From IMG/VR virus record IMGVR_UViG_3300025392_000640, positions 1 through 37,213 of that record: a DNA stretch of 37,213 nucleotides. One strand, given 5' to 3'. The position numbers and the translations under genes are program-made. How positions within the stretch are numbered: position 1 is the stretch's first letter; each line of letters opens with the position of its first letter. The notes beneath the pieces were generated by a model that saw only the letters and a program-made list of their open reading frames with translations, ran no database searches and was not told the origin of the DNA. The stretch is from a virus. Its lineage: Duplodnaviria > Heunggongvirae > Uroviricota > Caudoviricetes. Below, in pieces: positions 18,819 to 33,068 of this stretch.

Positions 18819-21800
18819 ATGAAAAATCTGAAAAAACTATTGTTACTTACGATGATGTTCGCATTATCTTTTGTAGCAAAAGCGCAGGAAACTACATCTG
18901 AAATTCAAGGAAATGTTTTGGCAAGTAAACACGGATTAGCAGGTGCTACAATCACAGCTATCCATTTACCTTCTGGTACGAAGTATGTAACAACATCTCG
19001 TGCTGATGGTAGATATAACTTACCAAACCTTAAAATTGGAGGACCTTATGTAGTAACGGTATCTTATGTGGGATATAAATCCGAAGCACAAAGTGATATC
19101 TCATTAGTATTAGGACAAACTTTTAAAGCAAATTTTGTATTAGATGACAAAGTTACAAATTTAAAAGAAGTGGTTGTAACATCTACCAAACAAGACAAAG
19201 TGATGAACAATGGTAGAACTGGTTCGCAAGACGTATTTAATAGAACACAAATTACAGGATTACCAACTGTATCTCGTTCTTACAAAGATGTATTGAAATT
19301 AGTTCCTACTAACAATAACTTTTCTTTTGGTGGTATGAGTTCACAATTGAATAATATCACAATAGATGGAGCTAACTTTAATAACTCCTTCGGATTAGCA
19401 AGTGATATTGGTGGACAAACGGGAGCACAAGCTATCTCTTTAGACGCTATTGAACAATTGCAAGTAAACACTTCACCTTTCGATGTTAGACAAGGTGGTT
19501 TTGCAGGTGCAGCAGTTAATTCAGTAACTAGAAGTGGTAACAATCAGGGATTTGGTTCAGTTTATCAATACTTTAAAAGTAAAGATTTACAGGGATACAA
19601 TGTTAATGGTGTTGTAGTACCTAAGCAAGATTACAATTATGATTTGAAAGGTTTCACAGTTGGTGGAGCAATAATCAAAAATAAATTGTTCTACTTTGTA
19701 AATGGTGAGCAAGAGAGTAAAACAACTCCGGGTACATTATTTGTAGCTAACGATGCTACTCACACAGCAAATGGTACAACAGTATCTAATGCATCAGCAG
19801 CTCAGTTAGACCAATTGGCTCAATTCTTAAAAGATAAATACGGATATGACCCTGGTCCTTATCAAGGTTATTCTTACAAATCTCAATCTAAGAGATTAAC
19901 AACAAAGATTGATTGGAACATTAACGATGCAAACAAATTTACTTTAAAGTATAATATGTTGCGTTCTTCATCCGATATCCCACCATCTAATAGTGGTTCG
20001 GTTAATAGTTCATATGGTAGAACAGCAGGTCAATACGCAATGCCTTTCTATGGTGCTGGTTATCAAATCTATAACAACGCAGATGTATTTACCGCAGAAT
20101 TGAATACTAAATTCTCTAATTCAATCAGTAACAAATTCCAATTAGGATATACAATGTTGAGAGATTATAGAAATCCTTTGACTTCTAAACCTTTCCCATT
20201 AGTTGATATCTTAGATGGTAACGGACAACCTTTTACATCTTTTGGATATGAGCAATACACTTATGGTAACAAATTGAATACCGATATTTACCAATTGAAT
20301 GATATCCTTTCTATTTACAAAGGAGCACATGAAATTACATTAGGTACTCAATCTTCTTACAAAGAATATAAGAATGGTTTCTCTCCATCTTACGAAGGTG
20401 TTTATCGTTTTAATAGCTTAGCTGATTTTTACGCATCTGTGGCAGGAACTAAAGCAGCAGCTAGATACGATTTATCATACACTTTAGGTAGTGGTGATTT
20501 CCCATTAGTAGGACCAAAAGATTTAGAATTAGGTTTCTTCATTCAGGACAAATATAGAGCAACTGATAAATTAACTCTTACTTATGGTTTAAGAGCTGAT
20601 TACACTAAGTTCTCTAATACATTCCTTTACAATCCAGTAGTAGATACATTAACTCGTTTCTACAATGGTATTCATGCTAACACAGGTGTAGCACCTAACA
20701 CAGCAATTCAATTATCACCAAGAGCTGGTTTCAACTATGATGTATTTGGTGACCAAACATTGCAAGTGAGAGGTGGTACTGGTTTATTCGCAGGCCCTCC
20801 ACCATTTGTTTGGATTTCTAACCAAGCTTCTAATAGTGGTATGGCATTGTTCGGAAGTATTTCTAACGGACAAGGTTATATGTTTAACCCAGACCCTAAC
20901 GCTTATAGACCAACAGCTACTGGTACTTTAAGTAAATCTTACTCAATCAATGTAACTGACCCTAACTATAAATTCCCTCAGGTTTGGAAATCAACTTTAG
21001 CAGTTGATAAGAAATTAGAAGGTGGATTCATCGTAACTGCGGAAGGTACTTATAGTAAGAATATTAACGCTTCAGTATTTGAAAACATCGCTTTACCTTC
21101 AACTGGTTTAATTACCTTATCTGATGGTAGAGTTCGTTTCCCTTATACTTCCGTTTACCCACAACCTGGTATTGTAAACTCAGCTAACAATCCATCAATT
21201 GGTAACGCTATTTATATGACTAACGCAAATGTTGGTTATGTATGGACAGGTACTTTACAAATTCAAAAAGTATCTAAGAACTTAGTAACTACATTAGCTT
21301 ACACTAGACAAGTTGCTAAAGATGCTACAATCAATGGTTCTACTGCATCAACAATGTGGGGAGCTAAGCCGGTTGTAGGTAATTCAAATGATTTCCAAGT
21401 TGGTTATTCTAACAACTATTTACCTCATAGAATCATAGGTTCTGTTGTATATGGTAAAGAATTTGTTAAACATACAAAGACTTCAGTTGGTTTAATCTAC
21501 GAAGCATCTCCTAACAATGTTCAATCTTCATTATCGTACATTTACAATGGTGACTTGAACAATGATGGTTATTCAAATGATTTAATGTTCATCCCTAAAG
21601 ATGCATCTCAAATCAAATTAACTAACGCAGCACCTGTAAGTGGTGTGGCTGATAATAGAACACAAGCTCAATTATGGCAACAATTAGATGCTTTCATTTC
21701 TAACAACCCTTATTTATCTAAACATAGAGGAGAGTTTGCAGAAAGACAAGCATTAGTATTACCTTGGACTCATAGAGTTGATTTAAACTTCACACAAGAT

Positions 21801-22082
21801 GTTTATTTTGTAACTAAAGGAAACAAACATACATTGAGATTTACAGCAGATATCTACAACTTAACAAACTTAATAAGCAACCAATTAGGTGTTTACAAAA
21901 TACCTACAACAACTGCTCCTTTAACTTTTGTTAAATTGGATACTGATGGTAAGACTCCAATCTTCTCATTCCCTTATTTAGATGGTAAGAATCAAGTTCC
22001 TTACACTAACTCATTTAAAGATGATGTAAGTGCTGCATCTCGTTTCCAAATACAATTGGGAGTTAGATATTTATTTAACTAA
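18819..22082 (+). CDS. TonB-dependent outer-membrane receptor (Oar-like, N-terminal carboxypeptidase-regulatory-like domain)
   Basis: Signal peptide, LPNLKIGGPY domain, plug motifs (ITIDGANFNNSFG, DVRQGGFAGAAVNSVTRSG), SPRAGFNYD, C-terminal QLGVRYLFN; 1087 aa, uninterrupted. Confidence 0.93.
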   Translation: MKNLKKLLLLTMMFALSFVAKAQETTSEIQGNVLASKHGLAGATITAIHLPSGTKYVTTSRADGRYNLPNLKIGGPYVVTVSYVGYKSEAQSDISLVLGQTFKANFVLDDKVTNLKEVVVTSTKQDKVMNNGRTGSQDVFNRTQITGLPTVSRSYKDVLKLVPTNNNFSFGGMSSQLNNITIDGANFNNSFGLASDIGGQTGAQAISLDAIEQLQVNTSPFDVRQGGFAGAAVNSVTRSGNNQGFGSVYQYFKSKDLQGYNVNGVVVPKQDYNYDLKGFTVGGAIIKNKLFYFVNGEQESKTTPGTLFVANDATHTANGTTVSNASAAQLDQLAQFLKDKYGYDPGPYQGYSYKSQSKRLTTKIDWNINDANKFTLKYNMLRSSSDIPPSNSGSVNSSYGRTAGQYAMPFYGAGYQIYNNADVFTAELNTKFSNSISNKFQLGYTMLRDYRNPLTSKPFPLVDILDGNGQPFTSFGYEQYTYGNKLNTDIYQLNDILSIYKGAHEITLGTQSSYKEYKNGFSPSYEGVYRFNSLADFYASVAGTKAAARYDLSYTLGSGDFPLVGPKDLELGFFIQDKYRATDKLTLTYGLRADYTKFSNTFLYNPVVDTLTRFYNGIHANTGVAPNTAIQLSPRAGFNYDVFGDQTLQVRGGTGLFAGPPPFVWISNQASNSGMALFGSISNGQGYMFNPDPNAYRPTATGTLSKSYSINVTDPNYKFPQVWKSTLAVDKKLEGGFIVTAEGTYSKNINASVFENIALPSTGLITLSDGRVRFPYTSVYPQPGIVNSANNPSIGNAIYMTNANVGYVWTGTLQIQKVSKNLVTTLAYTRQVAKDATINGSTASTMWGAKPVVGNSNDFQVGYSNNYLPHRIIGSVVYGKEFVKHTKTSVGLIYEASPNNVQSSLSYIYNGDLNNDGYSNDLMFIPKDASQIKLTNAAPVSGVADNRTQAQLWQQLDAFISNNPYLSKHRGEFAERQALVLPWTHRVDLNFTQDVYFVTKGNKHTLRFTADIYNLTNLISNQLGVYKIPTTTAPLTFVKLDTDGKTPIFSFPYLDGKNQVPYTNSFKDDVSAASRFQIQLGVRYLFN

Positions 22083-24650: not shown

Positions 24651-24923
24651 TTATTTCAGTTTATCGTATCTTTCCCTATTTCTTTTACTTTCAAACTCGA
24701 TTTCCACTGCAACCCATTTACCACGTGGACAAGCTCCTATCTTTGGTGAATAAATCTTTTTACTTAATACACAACCACATTCTCCGCAATGGATATATGG
24801 TTTATCTTTCTTAGAATCACAAGTATCGCATATTTCCATACGCTTAATTGCCAATCCACTTTCTAAATCATTTGGATTATAGGATATCTTCCAAGCTTTG
24901 AAAATTTCTTGAATTTTGTTCAT
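24651..24923 (-). CDS. Small Cys-rich (zinc-binding) protein
   Basis: CDTC...CGECGC...CPRGKW. Confidence 0.7.
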   Translation of the reverse strand: MNKIQEIFKAWKISYNPNDLESGLAIKRMEICDTCDSKKDKPYIHCGECGCVLSKKIYSPKIGACPRGKWVAVEIEFESKRNRERYDKLK

Positions 24924-24943
24924 ATAACATTACTTTCATATAA

Positions 24944-25255
24944 CTATAATGAGTTTAAATAATGTACTAAAGATTCTCCAAATAATTCCATATCTTCTAA
25001 TGTAGCTCTATAAACAATATCTTGTATTATATTACCATTTCCTTTACCATCTTCTACCAATGATATATCGTATATTATTTCATTGAAATCATCATCCATT
25101 TTAGGTTCTCTCATAATAATTAATGTTACACTTTGTCTACTGTTTATATTCCATACTTGCATAGCATAACACTCGTTGAGTTCTTCCATTTTACCAACTT
25201 GCCAATCTCCAAAATATTGGTTTCTAATTTTTTTATAATTCTTTATTACTAACAT
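24944..25255 (-). CDS. MLTIKN-family paralog
   Basis: MLVIKNYKKI...GDWQV...YAMQV...IMR...YDI. Confidence 0.8.
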   Translation of the reverse strand: MLVIKNYKKIRNQYFGDWQVGKMEELNECYAMQVWNINSRQSVTLIIMREPKMDDDFNEIIYDISLVEDGKGNGNIIQDIVYRATLEDMELFGESLVHYLNSL

Positions 25256-25256
25256 A

Positions 25257-25562
25257 TTATTGTCCTACTTCTATATGATGTCTAGTTATCACATCAATTA
25301 TTGCTTCATAAACTGCATTAACATCTTTTAATTCCCTCTTACTTAACCAATAAGATGCCTCACCACATAACATTAAATATTCGTTCCTATGTACATGATT
25401 TGGTTGTGGTGGAGTTACTCTACTTAATGTAATTACATAACTTCCACCAGTAGGTAAATGCGGATAATAGTAATTTATTATGTAATGAGTATCTTCCTCA
25501 ACTATCTTCAATTCACTTCTAAAAGATTTAATAAGTTTGCCCCAATTTTTTATTGTTATCAT
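25257..25562 (-). CDS. MLTIKN-family paralog
   Basis: MITIKNWGKL...YIINY...TLSR...YLM...ELKD. Confidence 0.78.
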   Translation of the reverse strand: MITIKNWGKLIKSFRSELKIVEEDTHYIINYYYPHLPTGGSYVITLSRVTPPQPNHVHRNEYLMLCGEASYWLSKRELKDVNAVYEAIIDVITRHHIEVGQ

Positions 25563-25571
25563 AATTTATAA

Positions 25572-25877
25572 TTAAAAAGGTAATCCATACTCATCATCAA
25601 TAATAGATTCTATTAAATTATAGAACCCACTTTTATTGAAATGGTAAGTAGGTAAATGAACAGATTTTCTCCACTGGCCTTTCATATCTTGAATGAATAC
25701 TTCATGATAACCATCATCACTAACTTCTCTATTTATTAAAACATATACTCTCTTTCCTTCCTTTCTATGTTCAAACTCAAAGGAATAAAATCCTTCATCT
25801 TCCAAAGCATACTTCATATCCCAATTATAGAATACACCAGTATTCATATCACCACCATAATTCTTTATTGTTAGCAT
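25572..25877 (-). CDS. MLTIKN-family paralog
   Basis: MLTIKNY...NWDM...YSFEF...LINR...YHEV. Confidence 0.8.
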   Translation of the reverse strand: MLTIKNYGGDMNTGVFYNWDMKYALEDEGFYSFEFEHRKEGKRVYVLINREVSDDGYHEVFIQDMKGQWRKSVHLPTYHFNKSGFYNLIESIIDDEYGLPF

Positions 25878-26206
25878 TAGAAATATATTTTTCTTATTGA
25901 ATAAAATTGTCCGTTATCTGATGTAAATGTATTTATCAAATAAGTTTCAGCTTCACTCATCGTTTCAAATTTCATTATTTGTTCTGGGTTTACTTTATTT
26001 CCATAATCAACTAATACTGTTTCACTTTGAGTATCTATAACTTCTATTTGAGGTAAGTTTGGATTATAGTTGTAATTTTGATTAATTGTAATTGCATGTT
26101 TAGTTCCTATACTCTTTGTATGATAGTTCCTATCTTTCATCCAACCAATTCCTTTAAGTAACCATTCGTTATTTGAACACTCATATATTGCGTAATATCC
26201 TTTCAT
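25877..26206 (-). CDS. Hypothetical protein (not an array-family member)
   Basis: 109-aa ORF lacking the family N-terminus. Confidence 0.7.
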   Translation of the reverse strand: MKGYYAIYECSNNEWLLKGIGWMKDRNYHTKSIGTKHAITINQNYNYNPNLPQIEVIDTQSETVLVDYGNKVNPEQIMKFETMSEAETYLINTFTSDNGQFYSIRKIYF

Positions 26207-26745
26207 TATTTTGAATTAAGTTTATCCATTTGTTCTTGTAAATCTTTTAATGCTTGTAGTGAAGCCCTTTGTATATTTGTTAAAGGTATTGATACTGAAC
26301 CACTCTTAGGTAACGTACCAATTCCATTTTGAGGTGCTATACTATATGTAACAGCTGTACCTGCATGATGGACTCTACTAATAATTCCTATACTACCACT
26401 ATTAATATTTCTAGTTACGTTCTTTACATAAGATTGTCTTTGTTCTAAAATATCATCAACCAACATTTCATACTCTGCTATAAATTTTTGTAAACTATCA
26501 ATATTAGTTTTTGTTAAATGTGATTTAGCTAATAGGTCTTGAGTTGCATTATCCCTAATACGAAATGCAATTACACCTTTAACTGCGGTTGCTATTAATT
26601 CAATATCCCACTTTGGCATTGTGTGTGTGTTTATGTTTATTATAGTTGCATAATAAACTTCTTCACTTGCATTGTGTATCGGATTAACAATTGAATAACC
26701 TTTGTAAGTCCAACCTGATATTTTATCCCATCCTTTTATTTTCAT
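26206..26745 (-). CDS. MLTIKN-family paralog with C-terminal extension
   Basis: MKIKGWDKISG...GYSI...YYATI, plus about 75 extra residues. Confidence 0.65.
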   Translation of the reverse strand: MKIKGWDKISGWTYKGYSIVNPIHNASEEVYYATIININTHTMPKWDIELIATAVKGVIAFRIRDNATQDLLAKSHLTKTNIDSLQKFIAEYEMLVDDILEQRQSYVKNVTRNINSGSIGIISRVHHAGTAVTYSIAPQNGIGTLPKSGSVSIPLTNIQRASLQALKDLQEQMDKLNSK

Positions 26746-26764
26746 TACGAAATTGTTTTATCAG

Positions 26765-26796
26765 TAAAGGTACGAAATTTTCCGCACTTTACCAAA
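26765..26796 (-). promoter_or_regulatory. Internal primary-sigma promoter within the paralog array
   Basis: TTTG-N20-TACCTTTA, 20 nt upstream of 26745. Confidence 0.7.
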
Positions 26797-26797
26797 T

Positions 26798-27103
26798 TTA
26801 TAAATGTCTCTTAAGTGCCAGCCCAAATGTTTCCATTACATTCTTCCAATCACTAAACCAATCAGCAGATATTTCATGCTGACCACATCTCTGATAATTT
26901 AAACGATAAAACCATTTGTTATCTATCTTATTATAATGTCCAATCTTACTTACTTCAACCCAATGAATTAAAGAAGAAACTTTATCATCATCAAATTGAA
27001 AACGATAATTAGTTTCAGTTTCGTGGACTTGTAGACACTGAAATCTTCCATCCCAAAATTCACAACCAACAATTCTATCTGCGTTTTTTATTTTTAATAT
27101 CAT
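26798..27103 (-). CDS. MLTIKN-family paralog
   Basis: MILKIKNADRIVG...GRFQ...YRFQF...ADWFSD. Confidence 0.78.
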   Translation of the reverse strand: MILKIKNADRIVGCEFWDGRFQCLQVHETETNYRFQFDDDKVSSLIHWVEVSKIGHYNKIDNKWFYRLNYQRCGQHEISADWFSDWKNVMETFGLALKRHL

Positions 27104-27104
27104 C

Positions 27105-27446
27105 TTAGAATGAATTTAATTTTTTATTTAAAACTATTAAAGCCATATTAAACACAATACTTTCTTTTAAATGATTTAACTCCAATGCTTCTTCATATAA
27201 AATATTTGTGTATGAATTATAACATATACTAACCGAATACCTTCCACTTTCGTTTGGATTTCTAGCTATCATAATTGCGGCACTTGCTATCTTAGTACCT
27301 CTGATATCGTGATAGATGGGAGTTAATTTTAGTACATAACAATCAGTATCAATTACTTTATTGAATTGTTCTTTAACTTTTGATACTTTATAAGTACTAC
27401 CAACCATCTTACCTTTAACTAAATCTATATTTGCTATTGTCAACAT
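27105..27446 (-). CDS. MLTIKN-family paralog
   Basis: MLTIANIDLVKG...GSTYKV...YVLKL...MIAR...YSVSI. Confidence 0.8.
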   Translation of the reverse strand: MLTIANIDLVKGKMVGSTYKVSKVKEQFNKVIDTDCYVLKLTPIYHDIRGTKIASAAIMIARNPNESGRYSVSICYNSYTNILYEEALELNHLKESIVFNMALIVLNKKLNSF

Positions 27447-28099
27447 TATACATCAAATTTATCTGGAAATTCATAAACTACTTTATCCAATAGTAATTGT
27501 GGGTCTTTACATACACTAACATCCAAGCGTGCTACTCTACCTTTACAAAATACACTAACTTGGTGAGAGTCCCACATAATATCATAGATACAAAATGTAA
27601 TAGTATGATGTGTACTTCTACTTTCTAAAACACATTCATATCCACTTCCAGTATGCATAGCTTGTACAACAAACCAACTTCTACCCAATACATCTACCTT
27701 AAACCCAGTTATTCTATCCCAATTTTGTATTGTTAGGGGTTTACCTATATGACTAATTGGTGGTGGTACATTTAATGAGGATGTACTAAATGCTTTTGGG
27801 TATGGTTTCATAGCTGTTAATCTTCCATAACTACCAGCGTACGCTATTCTAGCAGCCGGTGGTGGTGCTGATGTTGCAAATAATGGTGATTGTTTAGCTT
27901 TCTTCTTCTCACCAAATAATTGTTTCCATCCCCATCCCATTGGTGTATCATCCCAAAGATGTTTTCTTAGATTTAAGTTTTTAAACCAATCTTCATTGTA
28001 ATTAACTTTTATATATGATACTAACCAATATAGTAAAGCAGCACCACCAATGGTAATTAACAAGAAGAGAGCAAATCCAATTATCGAATCGTATTTCAT
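27446..28099 (-). CDS. TM anchor plus Pro/Ala linker fused to an MLTIKN-family domain
   Basis: N-terminal TM helix; internal PLTIQNWDRITG begins the family domain. Confidence 0.75.
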   Translation of the reverse strand: MKYDSIIGFALFLLITIGGAALLYWLVSYIKVNYNEDWFKNLNLRKHLWDDTPMGWGWKQLFGEKKKAKQSPLFATSAPPPAARIAYAGSYGRLTAMKPYPKAFSTSSLNVPPPISHIGKPLTIQNWDRITGFKVDVLGRSWFVVQAMHTGSGYECVLESRSTHHTITFCIYDIMWDSHQVSVFCKGRVARLDVSVCKDPQLLLDKVVYEFPDKFDV

Positions 28100-28105
28100 T
28101 TTATT

Positions 28106-28438
28106 TTATTTTAAGTTTAACATATAATCAATTAATTGTAATAGGGGAGTGGCACCCAATCTCAAATCCCTAACACTCAACATCCTTCGTATCGGTCTTT
28201 GACGTAATGGGTCTCGTCCATTATCCCACCACCATAACTCATATTCATAATCTCCTTTACCACCGGTAGGCATTCTCTCAATGTTAATTCTATTGAATGC
28301 GTTACCTTCTTTATCAATAATGAAAATGTGATATTGAGTACGGGTTTCTTCAATACCACTTACCCACCAACCTTTAGTATGAGCTCCAATAGGCCCTTTA
28401 CCAATTAATTTTTTATGAAAGTTTTCTATTGTTAGCAT
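28106..28438 (-). CDS. MLTIKN-family paralog
   Basis: MLTIENFHKKLIG...GWWV...YHIFI...NIER...YEL. Confidence 0.82.
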   Translation of the reverse strand: MLTIENFHKKLIGKGPIGAHTKGWWVSGIEETRTQYHIFIIDKEGNAFNRINIERMPTGGKGDYEYELWWWDNGRDPLRQRPIRRMLSVRDLRLGATPLLQLIDYMLNLK

Positions 28439-28439
28439 A

Positions 28440-28799
28440 TTAATAATTTTTCATATTTTCGGTAGCTTCGGTATCCCACCAATGTTTTGATTTAGATAAT
28501 GTTTGGGATATTAGATAAGCCAACGATTCCATACTTTTTAAATCATCGGGTCTAACCAATACCGTAGTTGATATCTTCAATCCCATAACAAATAATTCAT
28601 AACCACCTTTGCTTGAATGTATATTTCTAATCAATCGTACTTCGGTTTCTTTGTTATATCCTTTACCATTTTGAATTGCTTTGAAACGAATTGAATAATA
28701 TGGTTCACTTGTTACGGTTTTGTTTTCAGTTACTAACCATACTTGCCTACCTTGGCACATAACATCTTGTAACTTTAGGATTCCTTTTATTGTTAGCAT
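28440..28799 (-). CDS. MLTIKN-family paralog
   Basis: MLTIKGILKL...YSIRF...RLIR...YELFV...DDLKS. Confidence 0.82.
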   Translation of the reverse strand: MLTIKGILKLQDVMCQGRQVWLVTENKTVTSEPYYSIRFKAIQNGKGYNKETEVRLIRNIHSSKGGYELFVMGLKISTTVLVRPDDLKSMESLAYLISQTLSKSKHWWDTEATENMKNY

Positions 28800-29092
28800 T
28801 TTATTTTTATTGGTTTTCTATGTTTAATAATTAAATCAGCCATATCTTCTAATAGAATAACTTTATCTTTGATTTCATAATCAAGCAGATTAAAGAACTT
28901 TGATGGTGAATATCGTAATTGATACGAACCATGAAGTCCACGCTTCTTCATCAAATCAATTCGGAAATATCTCATATCATCCGTATCTAATACTGCGAAT
29001 GAATATGATTCACTAAAATCTTTTACTGAATGTATTTTATATCTACCATACTCCATTCCTATTATACTATCTATATTTTTTATCACTAACAT
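28793..29092 (-). CDS. MLTIKN-family paralog
   Basis: MLVIKNIDSIIG...GRYKI...YSFAV...YQL...EIKD. Confidence 0.82.
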   Translation of the reverse strand: MLVIKNIDSIIGMEYGRYKIHSVKDFSESYSFAVLDTDDMRYFRIDLMKKRGLHGSYQLRYSPSKFFNLLDYEIKDKVILLEDMADLIIKHRKPIKIKC

Positions 29093-29409
29093 AATTCTTC
29101 TATTATTTTATTAAATACATATCTTACATGTCCTACACTTTTAAATTGTTCGTAACGGACATGATATATGTTACTATATCTTCCATCAACATTTTTACCT
29201 CTTATTATATACTTACCCAATGTGCTTGGGTATCGGGTGATAAGAATACTTAATTTTTCATTAATAAACCCATCACAAAATTTATAAGCATATCCACCAC
29301 CATATCTTCCAGCGTCAATAAAGGCACTTTCTATATGTAATCCATTACGATAAGGCCATTTCATTATAGAATCGGAAGTATCCCAATTTGTTATTGATAA
29401 TAGTTTCAT
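29086..29409 (-). CDS. MLTIKN-family paralog, subfamily B
   Basis: LSITNW...PY...IESAF...ITRY...IIEELC; clearly related to 31786..32124. Confidence 0.75.
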   Translation of the reverse strand: MKLLSITNWDTSDSIMKWPYRNGLHIESAFIDAGRYGGGYAYKFCDGFINEKLSILITRYPSTLGKYIIRGKNVDGRYSNIYHVRYEQFKSVGHVRYVFNKIIEELC

Positions 29410-29744
29410 TATTGTTTGTTATGATATTTTTTAATTATGTATTCCATTTGTCCAATGAAGTTATCCATATCACCCAACCACTCCGAAGAACCACATACAT
29501 TGGTCACCTCTCCATTGTAGTTAAAGAAGTAAGTAATTACATTCCCCTTTCCAACATCATGCGTTACCATACCAATTCGGTTTAATGATATCGTACATCT
29601 ATCTATGGTATTTCCCACCGGTCCCAAACAATGTACATCAAACATATATTTGTTTTGTGTAGGGTGGAGATTAATATTCCTAACTACCCAACCACCAAAT
29701 ATCCTTCTACTACCTATTTTTGTTACACCATTTATTGTTAGCAT
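29409..29744 (-). CDS. MLTIKN-family paralog
   Basis: MLTINGVTKI...GGWVV...YMFDV...SLNR...EWLGDMDNF. Confidence 0.82.
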   Translation of the reverse strand: MLTINGVTKIGSRRIFGGWVVRNINLHPTQNKYMFDVHCLGPVGNTIDRCTISLNRIGMVTHDVGKGNVITYFFNYNGEVTNVCGSSEWLGDMDNFIGQMEYIIKKYHNKQ

Positions 29745-29844
29745 ATATTCAGTTTATCTCCAACTCCACTTCGGGTCGAATTTTTAAATTTTTTATTTTG
29801 TTTTGATTGATAGTTCTAGCCAAGCTCACTCCTCTTTAGGTTAT

Positions 29845-30186
29845 TTATTTAGGCCTTTGTCTTTTATAATATTCCGTATTAATCTTATTAAGTACCATAC
29901 CTAAGAACGCATCCTTCCTTCCGATTTGTTCCTTAATATAATAACCTTTGTGTATTTCGTTATCCCACGACTCATACACTATTTGTACACTATACCAACC
30001 TGCCGTTTCCCCTTCGTTTCTACTTATGAATACGGCGGCTCCATCTCCGATAGCACCACTTCTTAGCGTTATTACATATCTCCCACCCATACCCTGTCTA
30101 AAAAAATCATCAGTAGTAGCTTGATTGATTACCCAATCTCCTACGGTTTCACCTACCAATTTATCAAAGTTTTTTATCACTAACAT
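29845..30186 (-). CDS. MLTIKN-family paralog
   Basis: MLVIKNFDKLVG...GDWVI...YVITL...FISR...YSVQI. Confidence 0.82.
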   Translation of the reverse strand: MLVIKNFDKLVGETVGDWVINQATTDDFFRQGMGGRYVITLRSGAIGDGAAVFISRNEGETAGWYSVQIVYESWDNEIHKGYYIKEQIGRKDAFLGMVLNKINTEYYKRQRPK

Positions 30187-30198
30187 CTTTTATCGTTT

Positions 30199-30525
30199 TT
30201 ATTTTCTTAAATCGTATTCTCTATCTATATACCCCATTAAATGCGTTATGAATACATCTTTATCCATTAGAGCTTGTTTGGTTAATCCACATTCGTATAT
30301 CACATCCGTAAAATCGTTGTAACATATATAGATGTGATATTGTTTGGTTAATAGGTTTATGTTCCTATCTATTAGGATTGCTGCTCCTCTACCATCCCTA
30401 TCGAATGATATAGAATAGTGTTCACAAAGTAGCCATCTTTTTGGATTAGATTCTATAGCCTCTATTACTTCCCACTTACCAAATACCTTATTGTTTAGTT
30501 TCTCTATGTTCTTTATTGTTAGCAT
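30199..30525 (-). CDS. MLTIKN-family paralog
   Basis: MLTIKNIEKL...GKWEV...YSISF...LIDR...YHIYI...DKDVF. Confidence 0.85.
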   Translation of the reverse strand: MLTIKNIEKLNNKVFGKWEVIEAIESNPKRWLLCEHYSISFDRDGRGAAILIDRNINLLTKQYHIYICYNDFTDVIYECGLTKQALMDKDVFITHLMGYIDREYDLRK

Positions 30526-30526
30526 C

Positions 30527-30862
30527 CTATTTGTTTATTTCTTTATAAAGTATATTAGCCATAAAACTTAATAAACCATTTCTCTTACGAAGTGTATCTC
30601 TATCCAATCTATCACTCCATATTATATTATCCGTAGTACCATAGAATAACTTACAGGGATATTTTCCTTCCGGCGATACATCTGCTTCAATAGTTAAAAC
30701 CGCAGGTTGGGCTTTACCAATAGGTTCAGTCTTATTAAATTGGATTTGATAATGTGGGTGCCTTACTAAATCAGAACCATTAACTAAAAAATCGCAATAT
30801 GAAAGTTTAAACTCACCACATAACATTCCATTAAGTTCTCTTATGTTTTCTATCTTTAACAT
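30527..30862 (-). CDS. MLTIKN-family paralog
   Basis: MLKIENIRELNG...GEFKL...YQIQF...YPCKL. Confidence 0.8.
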   Translation of the reverse strand: MLKIENIRELNGMLCGEFKLSYCDFLVNGSDLVRHPHYQIQFNKTEPIGKAQPAVLTIEADVSPEGKYPCKLFYGTTDNIIWSDRLDRDTLRKRNGLLSFMANILYKEINK

Positions 30863-30863
30863 C

Positions 30864-31169
30864 TTACTTTGTTTTTAAATAATTTTCTATTATCCCTTTA
30901 AAGTTTTTCTTATCTCTTAAATAGTCAGCAGTGAATAGGGCACCACTAAATTTATATGCCATTGTATCTTTCCCTCTTACTTTATGGAGTTTACCCACTC
31001 TATACAATGTCATATCTTCGTATTGCCCGTGGCCCTGTCCAACTTGTTTATAAAATTGAAACTTATAGGTATCATCCATAAGCATTTCGGATATGCCTAT
31101 TAGAGTCCATTGGTCTATCACTCCGTACTTTGTGTTTAAAATACTCTTTATGTTTTCTATTGTTAGCAT
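30864..31169 (-). CDS. MLTIKN-family paralog
   Basis: MLTIENIKSI...QWTL...YKFQF...TLYR...DYLRDKKNF. Confidence 0.85.
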   Translation of the reverse strand: MLTIENIKSILNTKYGVIDQWTLIGISEMLMDDTYKFQFYKQVGQGHGQYEDMTLYRVGKLHKVRGKDTMAYKFSGALFTADYLRDKKNFKGIIENYLKTK

Positions 31170-31468
31170 GCTTCTCTCAATTTACTAATGAATATATTCA
31201 TATCTTTTATCTCATCCAACTTCAAATATAAATTGTTTGTATTACTACTCAATCTATAATTCCAATTATCCGTCCAACCTATCGGCTCTCTATGTAAGAA
31301 AATTGTTTTTGAATACTGCTTATTTGTTACATCAATTTGGTATCTATAATTGTGCATATTATATCCCTTTGGGTCCAAATCAAATATATCACATATCCTA
31401 TCTACATAAAAGTTACTACTCCCCAATCGTTTGTATCTTAATCGTTGTATGTTTTGTATTGTTAGCAT
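31163..31468 (-). CDS. MLTIKN-family paralog
   Basis: MLTIQNIQRL...NFYV...YRYQI...FLHR...YRL...EIKDMNIF. Confidence 0.85.
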   Translation of the reverse strand: MLTIQNIQRLRYKRLGSSNFYVDRICDIFDLDPKGYNMHNYRYQIDVTNKQYSKTIFLHREPIGWTDNWNYRLSSNTNNLYLKLDEIKDMNIFISKLREAC

Positions 31469-31474
31469 AATTAA

Positions 31475-31792
31475 CTATAAATTTTCTTTATTAAGTAAGA
31501 TGTATGCTAATTTATTAATCATATTATCTTTATCCACCAACCAATCTGCGGAGGCACTTATATTAGTTCTCATTGAATTGTATATAAAGAAATATGAAAA
31601 GCCAGGCTGTCCAAATATTTTATGACCGGTTCTCTCCAACATAATCTTACATCTTTTGGTAGTAGATTGACGATGATTTGCTAATTCAAATACATAGGTA
31701 TCATTTTGGTTACCTTCATATATTAGTGTAACATCCCACCCATCCCATATCGGTTGGTTTTGTAATTTCAATATGTTCTTAATTGTTAGCAT
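31475..31792 (-). CDS. MLTIKN-family paralog
   Basis: MLTIKNILKL...GWDV...YVFEL...MLER...DWLVDKDNM. Confidence 0.85.
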   Translation of the reverse strand: MLTIKNILKLQNQPIWDGWDVTLIYEGNQNDTYVFELANHRQSTTKRCKIMLERTGHKIFGQPGFSYFFIYNSMRTNISASADWLVDKDNMINKLAYILLNKENL

Positions 31793-32124
31793 AATTCTTT
31801 TATTATTTCTCCAAAATAGTATTTAATCCAATTTACATCCTTTACCGCACTCAATGATAACTTCTTAGGTACAGATGTAACTCCTGTCTTATATGAATAC
31901 CCCCACAATTGATAGTAGTAGTTTCCGTTTTTGGATTTAGTTTTGTAACGATTGATACATATCCTCATTACCTCTTTGTTCTTATCCTTCCAACGAAAAC
32001 GATAATCATATACAGCCATCGTATCAAATGCGGAATGTATATAATAGTTTGATTGGTAGGGGGAATCCATTAAATCACTATGTGTACACCAATTACTAAT
32101 ATTCAATCGTTTTTGTTTTAACAT
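31786..32124 (-). CDS. MLTIKN-family paralog, subfamily B
   Basis: LNISNW...PY...IHSAF...INRY...IIKELC. Confidence 0.75.
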   Translation of the reverse strand: MLKQKRLNISNWCTHSDLMDSPYQSNYYIHSAFDTMAVYDYRFRWKDKNKEVMRICINRYKTKSKNGNYYYQLWGYSYKTGVTSVPKKLSLSAVKDVNWIKYYFGEIIKELC

Positions 32125-32125
32125 A

Positions 32126-32365
32126 CTATAATGTAGGGTTTAATAAAGAAACAATTGAATGAACGATACTATCACCCTTAGTAGGTTTTGAAAAATCATA
32201 TTGGTTATTCAAATCGTTAGCTCGAATGATACCAGTCCTATCTTCGTAAGACTGGGATACATTCAACTCCTTAGCCCAATTCTGAAACTTAGGGTCGTTC
32301 ATTGTGTTTGCTCTATCCAATTCTAATTGTTCGTACTTTTGTAAATCTAAATTTTGTAAATTCAT
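32126..32365 (-). CDS. Hypothetical protein (not an array-family member)
   Basis: 79-aa ORF. Confidence 0.7.
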   Translation of the reverse strand: MNLQNLDLQKYEQLELDRANTMNDPKFQNWAKELNVSQSYEDRTGIIRANDLNNQYDFSKPTKGDSIVHSIVSLLNPTL

Positions 32366-32386
32366 AACTTATTGTTTTTATTTTTA

Positions 32387-32746
32387 TTATTTAAATGTTA
32401 TCTTACATCCATCGTGTCCACTAAAATCTCCGTTATCCGCTAACCTCAATATCCCATTAAGGAAATGTGAGAACTTAGTAGGAGAACTCATATCCGCTTT
32501 CCATATACTCATAGGATACGATTTGTTTTTATCCATATCCCATAACCATACTAAAAAGTTATCCGCATCACTATCTTTCAGTATAGCCAATTTATAATGT
32601 CTATTCGCTCTATTACCAATATCAGATATAGAATCAACTCCTATTACATACTTATCATCCATATCGGTACAATACTTAATGTTAAAGCGTTCAGATTCCA
32701 TATCCATAACCGCCTTAGTAAAGTTCTTAATGTTTAATCGTTTCAT
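32387..32746 (-). CDS. MLTIKN-family paralog (divergent)
   Basis: RLNIKNFTK...RFNI...YVIGV...DMSSPTKF. Confidence 0.65.
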   Translation of the reverse strand: MKRLNIKNFTKAVMDMESERFNIKYCTDMDDKYVIGVDSISDIGNRANRHYKLAILKDSDADNFLVWLWDMDKNKSYPMSIWKADMSSPTKFSHFLNGILRLADNGDFSGHDGCKITFK

Positions 32747-32747
32747 A

Positions 32748-33068
32748 TTACTTTGTATTTAATTGGGGTTTATACTTCTTAATCAATTCCATCTCTCTTT
32801 TGTGTACTTCCTCTTTACCTCTTACCACATCTAACACCGATATGTCGTAAACAATTTCTAAATCATCAATATACTTACTCATATCCTTATACAATGCCCA
32901 ATCCCAAGCTTCCTTTCGAGCTCTACTAAAGTGTTTTTGTAAACGAACCTTAACACTCTTTCGGAAAGCCCTACCAATAGATGCGGTAATACCAATATAC
33001 TCCTTTCCATTTTTGGTATTCGTAATAAGGTATATAATGTGATTCCTATCGCTTCTCTTTTTTCTCAT
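32748..33068 (-). CDS. Stand-alone GIY-YIG nuclease domain protein
   Basis: IIYLITNTKNGKEYIGIT, R...H, E (KREMELI) and terminal N (PQLN) of the GIY-YIG core. Confidence 0.85.
   Translation of the reverse strand: MRKKRSDRNHIIYLITNTKNGKEYIGITASIGRAFRKSVKVRLQKHFSRARKEAWDWALYKDMSKYIDDLEIVYDISVLDVVRGKEEVHKREMELIKKYKPQLNTK

What the first reader, a model, noticed from the sequence alone, without database searches (positions are those of the whole stretch)
25255..31792. Conserved DNA start motif ATGCTAACAAT acts as a plug-and-play junction between array genes
Seen: the exact 11-mer ATGCTAACAAT begins eight genes (starts 25877, 28438, 28799, 29744, 30525, 31169, 31468, 31792), each using CTA for Leu. 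Variants begin the genes at 29092 and 30186 (ATGTTAGTGATAAAAAA), 25255, 25562 and 27446. The rest of each gene shows no obvious DNA similarity. At four junctions (28793/28799, 29086/29092, 31163/31169, 31786/31792) the upstream gene has no separate stop codon; it ends in Cys-stop read from the downstream A-TGC-TAA or A-TGT-TAG. Inference: the motif is under DNA-level constraint. It could be a microhomology or site-specific crossover point allowing whole-gene duplication, deletion or swapping (a gene accordion) while keeping translational coupling.
Basis: partly seen in the sequence, partly recalled or inferred. Interest (0 to 1): 0.7.

Follow-up and report, generated by a model that had tools for sequence, protein, structure and literature searches.

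The report
Conserved start box in phage gene array
A large uncultivated phage carries rows of about 100-residue sister genes that all open with the same 11 DNA letters; the spelling is largely fixed by a conserved protein start, avoidance of a restriction site and an easily opened ribosome landing site, and the repeated box is also where related phages have gained, lost or swapped whole genes.

Summary
ATGCTAACAAT occurs 8 times in the window (0.07 expected) and 17 times in the 101-kb phage record. Every copy is the start of a member of an undescribed paralog family of about 37 genes (MLTI[K/E/Q]N...). The four Cys-stop overlaps are real.

The DNA-level constraint is real, but most of it has ordinary causes:
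- The peptide MLTI is conserved.
- ATG-TTA-ACN would create GTTAAC, which is absent from this genome (19-32 expected). Relatives that tolerate GTTAAC start the same genes with ATGTTAACAAT.
- Of the 60 GTTAAC-free spellings of Leu-Thr-Ile, CTA-ACA-ATA gives the most open predicted start region. The genome lacks Shine-Dalgarno sites (Bacteroidota-type).

The "plug-and-play" reading is partly supported:
- One gene sits in another's slot in a near relative, and homology switches inside the 11-mer.
- A complete relative differs from two others by a 4-gene indel with both ends inside the box.
- Gene-precise indels also occur without the box.
- No site-specific recombinase was found.
- Selection for recombination is not shown.

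The closest known analogue is PeSL-mediated shuffling in T4-type phages. The scan had already reached the shuffling reading on the second array of this same genome (e1-1833027).

The parts
24944..32746 (-). Tandem array of about 20 paralogous genes of ~100 aa (MLTI[K/E/Q]N family) plus three non-family ORFs. Genes are packed at -7 to +21 nt, except for two gaps of 52 and 100 nt.
   Evidence: ORF list; iterated HMM finds 36 members in the genome; no Pfam or PHROG match; AF2 model with pLDDT 90.7
31782..31792 (-). Exact start box ATGCTAACAAT of g31792. It also supplies the stop (A-TGC-TAA) of upstream gene 31786-32124.
31458..31468 (-). Exact start box of g31468
31159..31169 (-). Exact start box of g31169. 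It supplies the stop of 31163-31468.
30515..30525 (-). Exact start box of g30525
29734..29744 (-). Exact start box of g29744. This is the left junction of the cassette swap seen against L018/L019.
28789..28799 (-). Exact start box of g28799. It supplies the stop of 28793-29092.
28428..28438 (-). Exact start box of g28438
25867..25877 (-). Exact start box of g25877
30176..30186 (-). Variant box ATGTTAGTGAT (MLVI).
29082..29092 (-). Variant box ATGTTAGTGAT. It supplies the stop (A-TGT-TAG) of 29086-29409.
30852..30862 (-). Variant box ATGTTAAAGAT (MLKI)
27436..27446 (-). Variant box ATGTTGACAAT (MLTI spelled with TTG, another GTTAAC-free choice)
25552..25562 (-). Variant box ATGATAACAAT (MITI)
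25245..25255 (-). Variant box ATGTTAGTAAT (MLVI)
31475..31792 (-). g31792 cassette. It is 97% identical in DNA to the gene that occupies the slot of g29744 in L018/L019. The homology block runs exactly from the ATG to the stop.
29409..29744 (-). g29744 cassette. Its orthologs lie between g30862-like and g30525-like genes in L009, L012 and L015; here it sits after the 100-nt spacer. It is orthologous over its whole length, not a chimera.
29745..29844 (-). The only long (100 nt) non-coding spacer of the array. It is conserved upstream of the g31792-type gene in L009, L012, L015, L018 and L019.

Best explanation
The 11-mer is the DNA form of a conserved N-terminal peptide (Met-Leu-Thr-Ile) shared by a greatly expanded family of ~100-residue phage proteins. 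Two ordinary selective forces lock its synonymous sites.

1. The phage purges the palindrome GTTAAC, an HpaI-type restriction site. ATG-TTA-ACN is therefore forbidden, and Leu2 is spelled CTA whenever Thr follows.
2. The genome uses Shine-Dalgarno-less, Bacteroidota-type initiation, which depends on an unstructured, A-rich start region. CTA-ACA-ATA is the most open of the permitted spellings.

YTA followed by a purine also gives a +1-frame stop, which seven upstream genes use as their only stop.

As a consequence, and not demonstrably as a purpose, every gene start carries the same 11-21 nt. General homologous or microhomology recombination between these direct repeats adds, deletes and moves whole genes while keeping start and stop intact. 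The complete relative G003 encodes a RecA/UvsX-type recombinase.

Shown: motif statistics, GTTAAC avoidance and its link to the TTA/CTA choice, absence of SD sites, and breakpoints in the box. Inferred: that accessibility is the selected trait, that a host R-M system drives the avoidance, and the recombination mechanism.
For: Family and motif:
- 8 copies in the window and 17 in the genome, all at family gene starts.
- Information content is high only from nt 0 to 11-17. Nothing is conserved upstream.

GTTAAC avoidance:
- 0 sites in 101 kb against 19 (Markov) or 32 (zero-order) expected.
- GATC is 0 against 288, GAATTC 0 against 29 and GTATAC 1 against 23.
- In NNG-Leu-ACN contexts TTA is 0 of 5 in non-family genes and 0 of 19 in family genes. 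It is about 60% where either the preceding codon does not end in G or the next codon is not ACN.
- MLV and MLK members do use TTA.

Across records:
- G003 (274 kb, complete) has 2 GTTAAC against 244 CAATTG. Its MLT starts are 9 CTA, 1 TTG, 1 CTC and 0 TTA.
- G001 has 10 against 75, and all 3 of its MLT starts are ATGTTAACAAT. G002 and G004 also use TTA.
- Loci with TTA starts hold 1.04 other GTTAAC per 10 kb; loci without hold 0.15.

Start region:
- Only 9% of genes have an SD-like core, against 14% background. A peaks at -12 to -10 and at -3, as described for Bacteroidetes (PMC6847099).
- A-ending codons are 48% at codons 2-7 of non-family genes against 38% internally.
- Predicted opening energy of -15..+15 ranks TTA-ACA-ATA and CTA-ACA-ATA 1st and 2nd of 72 spellings in native flanks. 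The native spelling has mean rank 12 of 72.
- With shuffled flanks CTA-ACA-ATA is 4th of 72 and the best of all GTTAAC-free spellings.

+1-frame stop: 27 of 37 family genes carry it against 15 of 164 others. It is used at 7 family junctions and at none of the others.

Recombination:
- L018/L019 carry g31792 (97% identity) in the slot of g29744, and homology switches inside the 11-mer.
- G003 differs from L039/L075 by a 1,295-bp, 4-gene indel with both ends inside ATGCTNACAATAGAAAA.
- Gene order and content differ among the window, L009, L012, L015 and L018.
- Per-gene identity to L018 steps 97/70/90/93/95/86/92/91%.
Against: - Predicted accessibility differences are small (0.15-1 kcal/mol) and untested.
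- Accessibility does not explain why codon 3 is never ACT or ACC (0 of 150) while ACG occurs 8 times.
- Between orthologs, synonymous identity at codons 2-4 is only mildly above the rest of the gene (82% against 73%).
- No host, and no GTTAAC-specific R-M system, has been identified.
- Breakpoints at gene boundaries are also what selection for intact genes would leave. Gene-precise indels occur without a shared box: g27446, the 454-aa gene in L018 and the L037/G003 replacement.
- The right junction of the g31792/g29744 swap has only about 4 shared letters.
Confidence: 0.6

Rival explanations
1. The box is maintained because it recombines. It would be a selected, integrase-free cassette junction (start codon, coupling stop and recombination homology in one), or it would be kept identical by the recombination itself through concerted evolution. 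Translation and restriction avoidance would be secondary.
For: - Breakpoints lie inside the box in two independent comparisons.
- Array content varies between relatives.
- Synonymous constraint that accessibility does not explain: 0 of 150 pyrimidines at nt 9.
- The box is kept in phages whose orthologs are only 34-36% identical.
Against: - Selection for evolvability is second-order and weak.
- Between orthologs, synonymous sites of codons 2-4 change at nearly the normal rate.
- TTA and CTA lineages split exactly by GTTAAC tolerance, which a homology requirement does not predict.
- Indels occur without the box.
Confidence: 0.2
2. The motif plays no part in recombination. Junctions at gene starts only reflect survival of recombinants with intact genes after random illegitimate recombination, and the box is purely a coding and translation feature.
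For: - Gene-precise indels occur at boundaries without a shared box.
- The right junction of the swap has about 4 nt of homology.
- First-order forces explain most of the spelling.
Against: - The 4-gene indel has 17 nt of shared sequence at both ends.
- Direct repeats of this length are established substrates for deletion and duplication in phages (general knowledge).
- PeSL precedent (PMC2839356).
Confidence: 0.12
3. The 11-mer is an RNA operator. A phage or host RNA-binding factor, comparable to the T4 RegA translational repressor (recalled from general knowledge), would recognise AUGCUAACAAU and co-regulate the family.
For: - The constraint is confined to the initiation region.
- Purine-only at nt 9 is unexplained.
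Against: - MLV, MLK and MIT variants with different letters are interspersed in the same arrays.
- TTA replaces CTA freely where GTTAAC is tolerated.
- No Rfam match.
- No candidate regulator was identified.
Confidence: 0.05
4. A site-specific recombinase acts on the box, as in a shufflon or an integron.
For: A repeated short site lies at each cassette boundary.
Against: - No tyrosine or serine recombinase in the 101-kb record or in the complete 274-kb relative.
- The repeats are direct and lack inverted-repeat core structure.
Confidence: 0.03

Closest known systems
PeSL (promoter-early stem-loop) cassettes that mediate modular shuffling in hyperplastic regions of T4-type phages (Arbiol et al. 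2010, PMC2839356; Comeau et al. 2014, PMC4122927)
   Same: - Short conserved sequences repeat at the boundaries of small, non-essential, fast-evolving genes of a large phage.
- Indels and replacements between related phages have their ends in these repeats.
- Recombination at them yields viable whole-gene products.
   Different: - PeSLs are ~100-bp intergenic regulatory units with a sigma-70 promoter and a terminator hairpin.
- Here the repeat is 11-21 nt inside the coding sequence. Nothing is conserved upstream.
- Spacers are mostly -7 to +21 nt. There are no terminator-like sites and no excess of promoter-like sites.
- The genes are paralogs of one family rather than unrelated ORFans.
- Mini-circles have not been tested.
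Restriction-site (palindrome) avoidance shaping local codon choice in phage genomes (reviewed in PMC8410138)
   Same: - A specific 6-bp palindrome is absent from the genome.
- Synonymous codons are chosen so that it never forms.
- Relatives with weaker avoidance use the otherwise preferred codon.
   Different: Here the avoidance acts on a conserved N-terminal tripeptide repeated in dozens of paralogs. It therefore produces a striking invariant DNA motif rather than scattered codon shifts. The restricting host system is unknown.
Start-region accessibility and Kozak-like A-rich context in Bacteroidetes translation (Baez et al. 2019, PMC6847099)
   Same: - There are no SD sequences.
- A is enriched at -3 and further upstream.
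- An unstructured initiation region is the main tuning feature.
   Different: That work concerns host genes and positions upstream of the start. Here the inference covers codons 2-4 of phage genes and rests on folding predictions only.
Gene accordions (tandem copy-number expansion and contraction under selection, e.g. poxvirus K3L; recalled from general knowledge)
   Same: A tandem array varies in copy number by recombination between repeats.
   Different: Accordion copies are near-identical and recombine over their whole length. Here the paralogs are about 16% identical, and only the first 11-21 nt can pair.

Membership tests
PeSL regulatory cassette | Intergenic location; conservation spread over ~100 bp | tested here: not met
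   The box starts at the ATG and lies in the coding sequence. Information content upstream (-40..-1) is at most 0.6 bit. Spacers are mostly -7 to +21 nt.
PeSL regulatory cassette | Strong sigma-70-like early promoter | tested here: not met
   43 promoter-like sites against 52 expected in shuffles, none tied to the junctions. Bacteroidota-type promoters are not covered by this scan.
PeSL regulatory cassette | Stem-loop terminator or attenuator | tested here: not met
   0 terminator-like sites in 24800-32900, against 2.2 expected.
PeSL regulatory cassette | Indel or replacement breakpoints between related phages fall in the element | tested here: met
   Left junction of the L018/L019 swap lies inside the 11-mer. 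Both ends of the G003 against L039/L075 4-gene indel lie in the box.
PeSL regulatory cassette | Excised mini-circles joined at the element | not testable with these tools
Restriction-site avoidance (GTTAAC) | Site count far below expectation genome-wide | tested here: met
   0 against 19-32 expected in G000. 2 against 244 for the CAATTG control in the complete relative G003.
Restriction-site avoidance (GTTAAC) | Synonymous codon shift exactly where the site would form | tested here: met
   TTA is 0 of 24 in NNG-Leu-ACN, against about 60% in flanking-context controls.
Restriction-site avoidance (GTTAAC) | Lineages with relaxed avoidance use the forbidden spelling | tested here: met
   G001, G002 and G004 start MLT genes with ATGTTAACAAT. 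TTA loci have 7-fold more other GTTAAC sites.
Restriction-site avoidance (GTTAAC) | Host carries a cognate R-M system | not testable with these tools
   The host is unknown; the phage is an uncultivated metagenomic record.
Integron / shufflon-type site-specific cassette system | Dedicated tyrosine or serine recombinase | tested here: not met
   PF00589 and PF00239 are absent from G000 (40% complete) and from the complete relative G003.
Integron / shufflon-type site-specific cassette system | Structured recombination site (attC-like imperfect palindrome, or inverted sfx repeats) | tested here: not met
   The boxes are direct repeats without an internal palindrome.

The most novel reading that the evidence does not exclude
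The start box is an evolved, self-contained cassette junction. It combines a start codon, a universal +1-frame stop for whatever gene lies upstream, an SD-independent re-initiation site and recombination homology. This would let a jumbo phage run an integrase-free, integron-like library of fast-evolving small effector genes, exchanged within and between phage lineages through excised circles or unequal crossover.
Probability: 0.2. Interest if true: 0.8.

Novelty: new variant of a known kind. Interest (0 to 1): 0.55.

Why it matters
- It shows how an apparently mysterious invariant DNA word can arise from three ordinary pressures acting on one conserved tripeptide: protein sequence, restriction-site avoidance and start-site accessibility.
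- Once present in dozens of tandem paralogs, that word becomes the seam along which whole genes are shuffled.
- This extends the PeSL idea of targeted modular shuffling from intergenic regulatory cassettes of coliphages to an in-frame start box in uncultivated Bacteroidota-type jumbo phages.
- It points to a large, undescribed and fast-diversifying protein family (about 37 copies in 40% of a genome) that is a plausible arms-race toolkit.
- It gives concrete, cheap tests: silent recoding, an HpaI-type restriction challenge and circle PCR.

Tried and rejected
**Searches for a known family, fold or RNA**
- Pfam and PHROGs on ten array proteins gave nothing above threshold.
- Fold searches of a confident model gave no Foldseek match at E <= 0.001 in PDB or BFVD.
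- The VIA wide search gave only Z 4.5-6.2 to several type III secretion chaperones, below the level that means more than a common arrangement.
- The ESM Atlas search found one unnamed viral cluster at TM 0.72.
- Rfam gave no match in the array.

**Searches for relatives and reads**
- blastn of the array against GenBank phages gave no match.
- The search for related loci with the family alignment failed because no stretch is conserved enough.
- With single proteins it found nothing or only distant relatives.
Population junctions and circles could therefore not be examined.

**Ideas tested and dropped**
- k-mer avoidance as the reason ACT, ACC or CTT are missing: no under-represented 4-6-mer other than GTTAAC and GATC touches any synonymous variant.
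- An SD or other conserved upstream element: none.
- A PeSL-like promoter or terminator: none.
- Site-specific recombinase: none.
- Chimeric origin of g29744: rejected, since it is orthologous to the L012 gene from ATG to stop.
- Recent import of g31792 alone: only suggestive, at 97.2% against 95.5% for the next best gene.
- Phage tRNAs as the cause of the codon choice: the phage encodes tRNA-Leu(UAG), Leu(UAA), Thr(UGU), Ile(GAU), three CAU tRNAs, Lys(UUU) and Asn(GUU). CTA is therefore decodable, but this does not discriminate TTA from CTA.

Full report
**1. Context**

The window is the first 37 kb of a 101,213-bp IMG/VR virus record, estimated 40% complete, with 31.7% G+C. About 194 of 201 crude ORFs lie on the minus strand. 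A complete relative, G003, is 274 kb.

Three features point to a Bacteroidota-type host:
- Only 9% of genes have an SD-like core, against 14% at random positions.
- A is enriched at -12 to -10 and at -3. This is the pattern reported for Bacteroidetes, where initiation is tuned by mRNA structure and upstream adenines (PMC6847099).
- The window encodes a SusC-like TonB-dependent receptor homolog at 18819-22082.

The record carries 25 tRNA genes, including Leu(UAG), Leu(UAA), Thr(UGU), Asn(GUU) and Lys(UUU).

**2. The observation**

ATGCTAACAAT occurs 8 times in the window against 0.07 expected and 17 times in the record. Every copy is on the minus strand and forms the first 11 nt of an ORF of about 100 aa.

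An iterated HMM finds 36 family members in the record, 37 with the divergent g29409. They lie in two arrays, at 24.9-32.7 kb and 42.7-47.7 kb, with a few singletons.

Outside the N-terminus the paralogs have a median identity of 16%. The only DNA repeats in the array are the start boxes. Information content is high from nt 0 to about 17 and negligible upstream.

**3. Is there DNA-level constraint?**

Yes. Codon use at the conserved positions differs sharply from the genome:

| Codon | Genome-wide share | At the conserved position |
|---|---|---|
| CTA (Leu) | 8.9% | 17 of 30 at codon 2 |
| ACA (Thr) | 45% | 20 of 20 at codon 3 |
| ATA (Ile) | 40% | 29 of 32 at codon 4, 17 of 18 at codon 7 |

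Other conserved Leu, Ile and Val columns of the same alignment show ordinary codon mixtures.

In 233 non-redundant family genes from all fetched loci, codon use is:
- Leu2 before Thr: CTA 106, CTT 9, TTA 8, TTG 6, CTC 2, CTG 1.
- Thr3: ACA 142, ACG 8, ACT 0, ACC 0.
- Ile4: ATA 185 of 198.

This sample is partly biased by the pattern scan.

The box persists in phages whose orthologs are only 34-36% identical. Between orthologs, however, codons 2-4 are only mildly more conserved at synonymous sites than the rest of the gene (82% against 73% same codon).

**4. Why C at position 4**

ATG-TTA-ACN contains GTTAAC. This palindrome is absent from the 101-kb record, against 19 expected (Markov) or 32 (zero-order).

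Other palindromes are purged as well:
- GATC: 0 against 288 expected.
- CGCG: 0 against 22.
- GAATTC: 0 against 29.
- GTATAC: 1 against 23.
- GGTACC: 0 against 14.

AATT, AATATT and CAATTG are at normal levels.

In NNG-Leu-ACN contexts TTA is never used: 0 of 5 in non-family genes and 0 of 19 in family genes. It makes up about 60% of Leu codons where either the preceding codon does not end in G or the next codon is not ACN. Family members with Val or Lys at codon 3 do use TTA.

The prediction that GTTAAC-tolerant relatives should use TTA holds:
- An IMG/VR scan with ATGYTAACAATANARAAYAT found 40 family genes, 35 with C and 5 with T.
- G003 (GTTAAC 2 against CAATTG 244) has 9 CTA, 1 TTG, 1 CTC and no TTA.
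- G001 (10 against 75) starts all three of its MLT genes with ATGTTAACAAT. G002 and G004 do likewise.
- Loci with TTA starts carry 1.04 other GTTAAC sites per 10 kb, against 0.15 in the rest.
- Where the residue before Leu does not end in G, TTA-ACA appears, as in MVLTIQN spelled ATG GTC TTA ACA.

**5. Why A at the wobble positions**

Non-family genes also prefer A-ending codons at codons 2-7 (A3 48% against 38% internally; ACA 63% against 44%), but less strongly than the family (64%).

I computed the energy needed to open -15..+15 for all 72 spellings of Leu-Thr-Ile in the 17 native contexts:
- TTA-ACA-ATA (3.85 kcal/mol) and CTA-ACA-ATA (3.86 kcal/mol) rank first and second.
- The native spelling has mean rank 12 of 72.
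- The variants actually seen in relatives (CTT, ACG, ATT) come next.
- ACT, ACC and TTG score worse.

With shuffled flanks, which removes co-adaptation of the flanks, CTA-ACA-ATA is 4th of 72 and the best of the 60 GTTAAC-free spellings. Native flanks are also much more open than shuffled ones (3.9 against 6.2 kcal/mol).

The box is therefore the most accessible permitted spelling of MLTI. The effect sizes are small, and the complete absence of ACT and ACC is not explained.

**6. The stop function**

YTA followed by a purine makes TAA or TAG in the +1 frame. 27 of 37 family genes carry such a stop at nt 5-7, against 15 of 164 other genes. Seven upstream genes use it as their only stop, and no non-family junction does.

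The "NW" subfamily (g32124, g29409 and their orthologs) always terminates inside the next gene's box.

**7. Recombination at the box**

Gene order in L009, L012 and L015 is g30862 - g29744 - g30525 - g30186 - spacer - g31792 - g29409. In the window it is g32124 - g31792 - g31468 - g31169 - g30862 - g30525 - g30186 - spacer - g29744 - g29409.

*Swap against L018/L019.* These near relatives carry a 97%-identical g31792 directly after the spacer.
- Their upstream sequence matches the window's g29744 upstream.
- Their downstream sequence matches g31792.
- The switch lies within ATGCTAACAAT.
- The homology block is exactly ATG to stop.
- The right junction lies at the stop codon with only about 4 shared letters, and g29744 is not a chimera.

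*Indel in the G003 group.* L039 and L075 lack four genes (1,295 bp) that are present in G003. Both ends lie inside ATGCTNACAATAGAAAA, which is the signature of unequal recombination between direct repeats.

*Mosaicism.* Per-gene identity between the window and L018 steps 97/70/90/93/95/86/92/91%, indicating a gene-by-gene mosaic.

*Counter-examples.* These show that the box is not required for gene-precise change:
- the g27446 indel;
- the 454-aa insertion in L018;
- the L037/G003 cassette replacement.

*Recombinases.* No tyrosine or serine recombinase exists in the record or in the complete relative. G003 has a RecA/UvsX-type gene.

**8. Comparison with known systems**

The closest analogue is PeSL-mediated modular shuffling (PMC2839356). 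The outcome is the same, namely targeted and viable whole-gene exchange. The box, however, fails the defining PeSL features: it is not intergenic, it is not ~100 bp long, and it has no promoter and no terminator.

The spelling of the box is a case of restriction-site avoidance acting on codon choice (PMC8410138).

**9. The protein**

An AF2 model built from 56 sequences is confident (pLDDT 90.7). It has a short N-terminal helix, six strands and a C-terminal helix.

No significant fold match was found. Weak similarity to type III secretion chaperones (Z up to 6.2) is only a lead. Function is unknown. The copy number and divergence suggest an arms-race role, but that is inference.

**10. Verdict**

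The motif is best read as a constrained coding and translation feature that has become the seam for whole-gene shuffling.

The present work agrees with it, using independent comparisons, and adds the GTTAAC and accessibility explanations.

Noticed in passing
window 32748-33068 (-): A 106-aa GIY-YIG nuclease ORF lies immediately upstream of the array (Pfam GIY-YIG 28.4 bits, above the cut-off; also SegE_GIY-YIG-like). It is absent from the syntenic spot in L009, L012 and L015. It looks like a free-standing homing-endonuclease insertion that could stimulate local recombination.
   Followed up: partly
whole record G000 (window included): Several palindromes are absent or nearly so: GATC 0 (288 expected), CGCG 0 (22), GAATTC 0 (29), GTTAAC 0 (19-32), GGTACC 0 (14), GTATAC 1 (23) and CTATAG 5 (19.5). 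Relatives differ: L009, L012 and L015 each have 6-7 GAATTC sites but no GTTAAC.
   Followed up: partly
window 18819-22082 (+): A phage-encoded 1087-aa SusC-like TonB-dependent receptor homolog (CarboxypepD_reg, Plug and OMP beta-barrel domains). It is conserved in L009 and L015, and sits on the opposite strand to nearly all other genes.
   Followed up: no
window 31786-32124 and 29086-29409 (-): Two paralogous 'NW' genes (MLKQKRLNISNW..., MKLLSITNW...) both end ...ELC. Neither has a stop codon of its own: each terminates inside the start box of whichever family gene follows, as do their orthologs in L012 and L018.
   Followed up: partly
window 27446-28099 (-): A 217-aa protein with an N-terminal transmembrane segment fused to a family domain (KPLTIQNWDRITG... 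from about residue 120). It is conserved in L009, L012, L015 and L018.
   Followed up: no
window 29745-29844 (-): The only long spacer in the array (100 nt). Its 3' part (GACCCGA...GTGGAG...GATAAACTGAAT) is conserved in five relatives, always upstream of one array gene. It may be an internal promoter or regulatory site.
   Followed up: no
L018:3612-4976: A 454-aa gene with no counterpart in G000 is inserted between the orthologs of g27103 and g26745 in the closest relative.
   Followed up: no
family genes in all fetched loci: Codon 3 (Thr) is ACA 142 times, ACG 8, ACT 0 and ACC 0, although ACT plus ACC make up 43% of internal Thr codons in the same genes. Neither GTTAAC avoidance nor predicted accessibility explains this.
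   Followed up: partly
model of window 31475-31792 (-): The confident AF2 model matches nine different type III secretion class I chaperones at Z 4.5-6.2 (VIA wide search). That is too weak to call, but the matches recur.
   Followed up: partly
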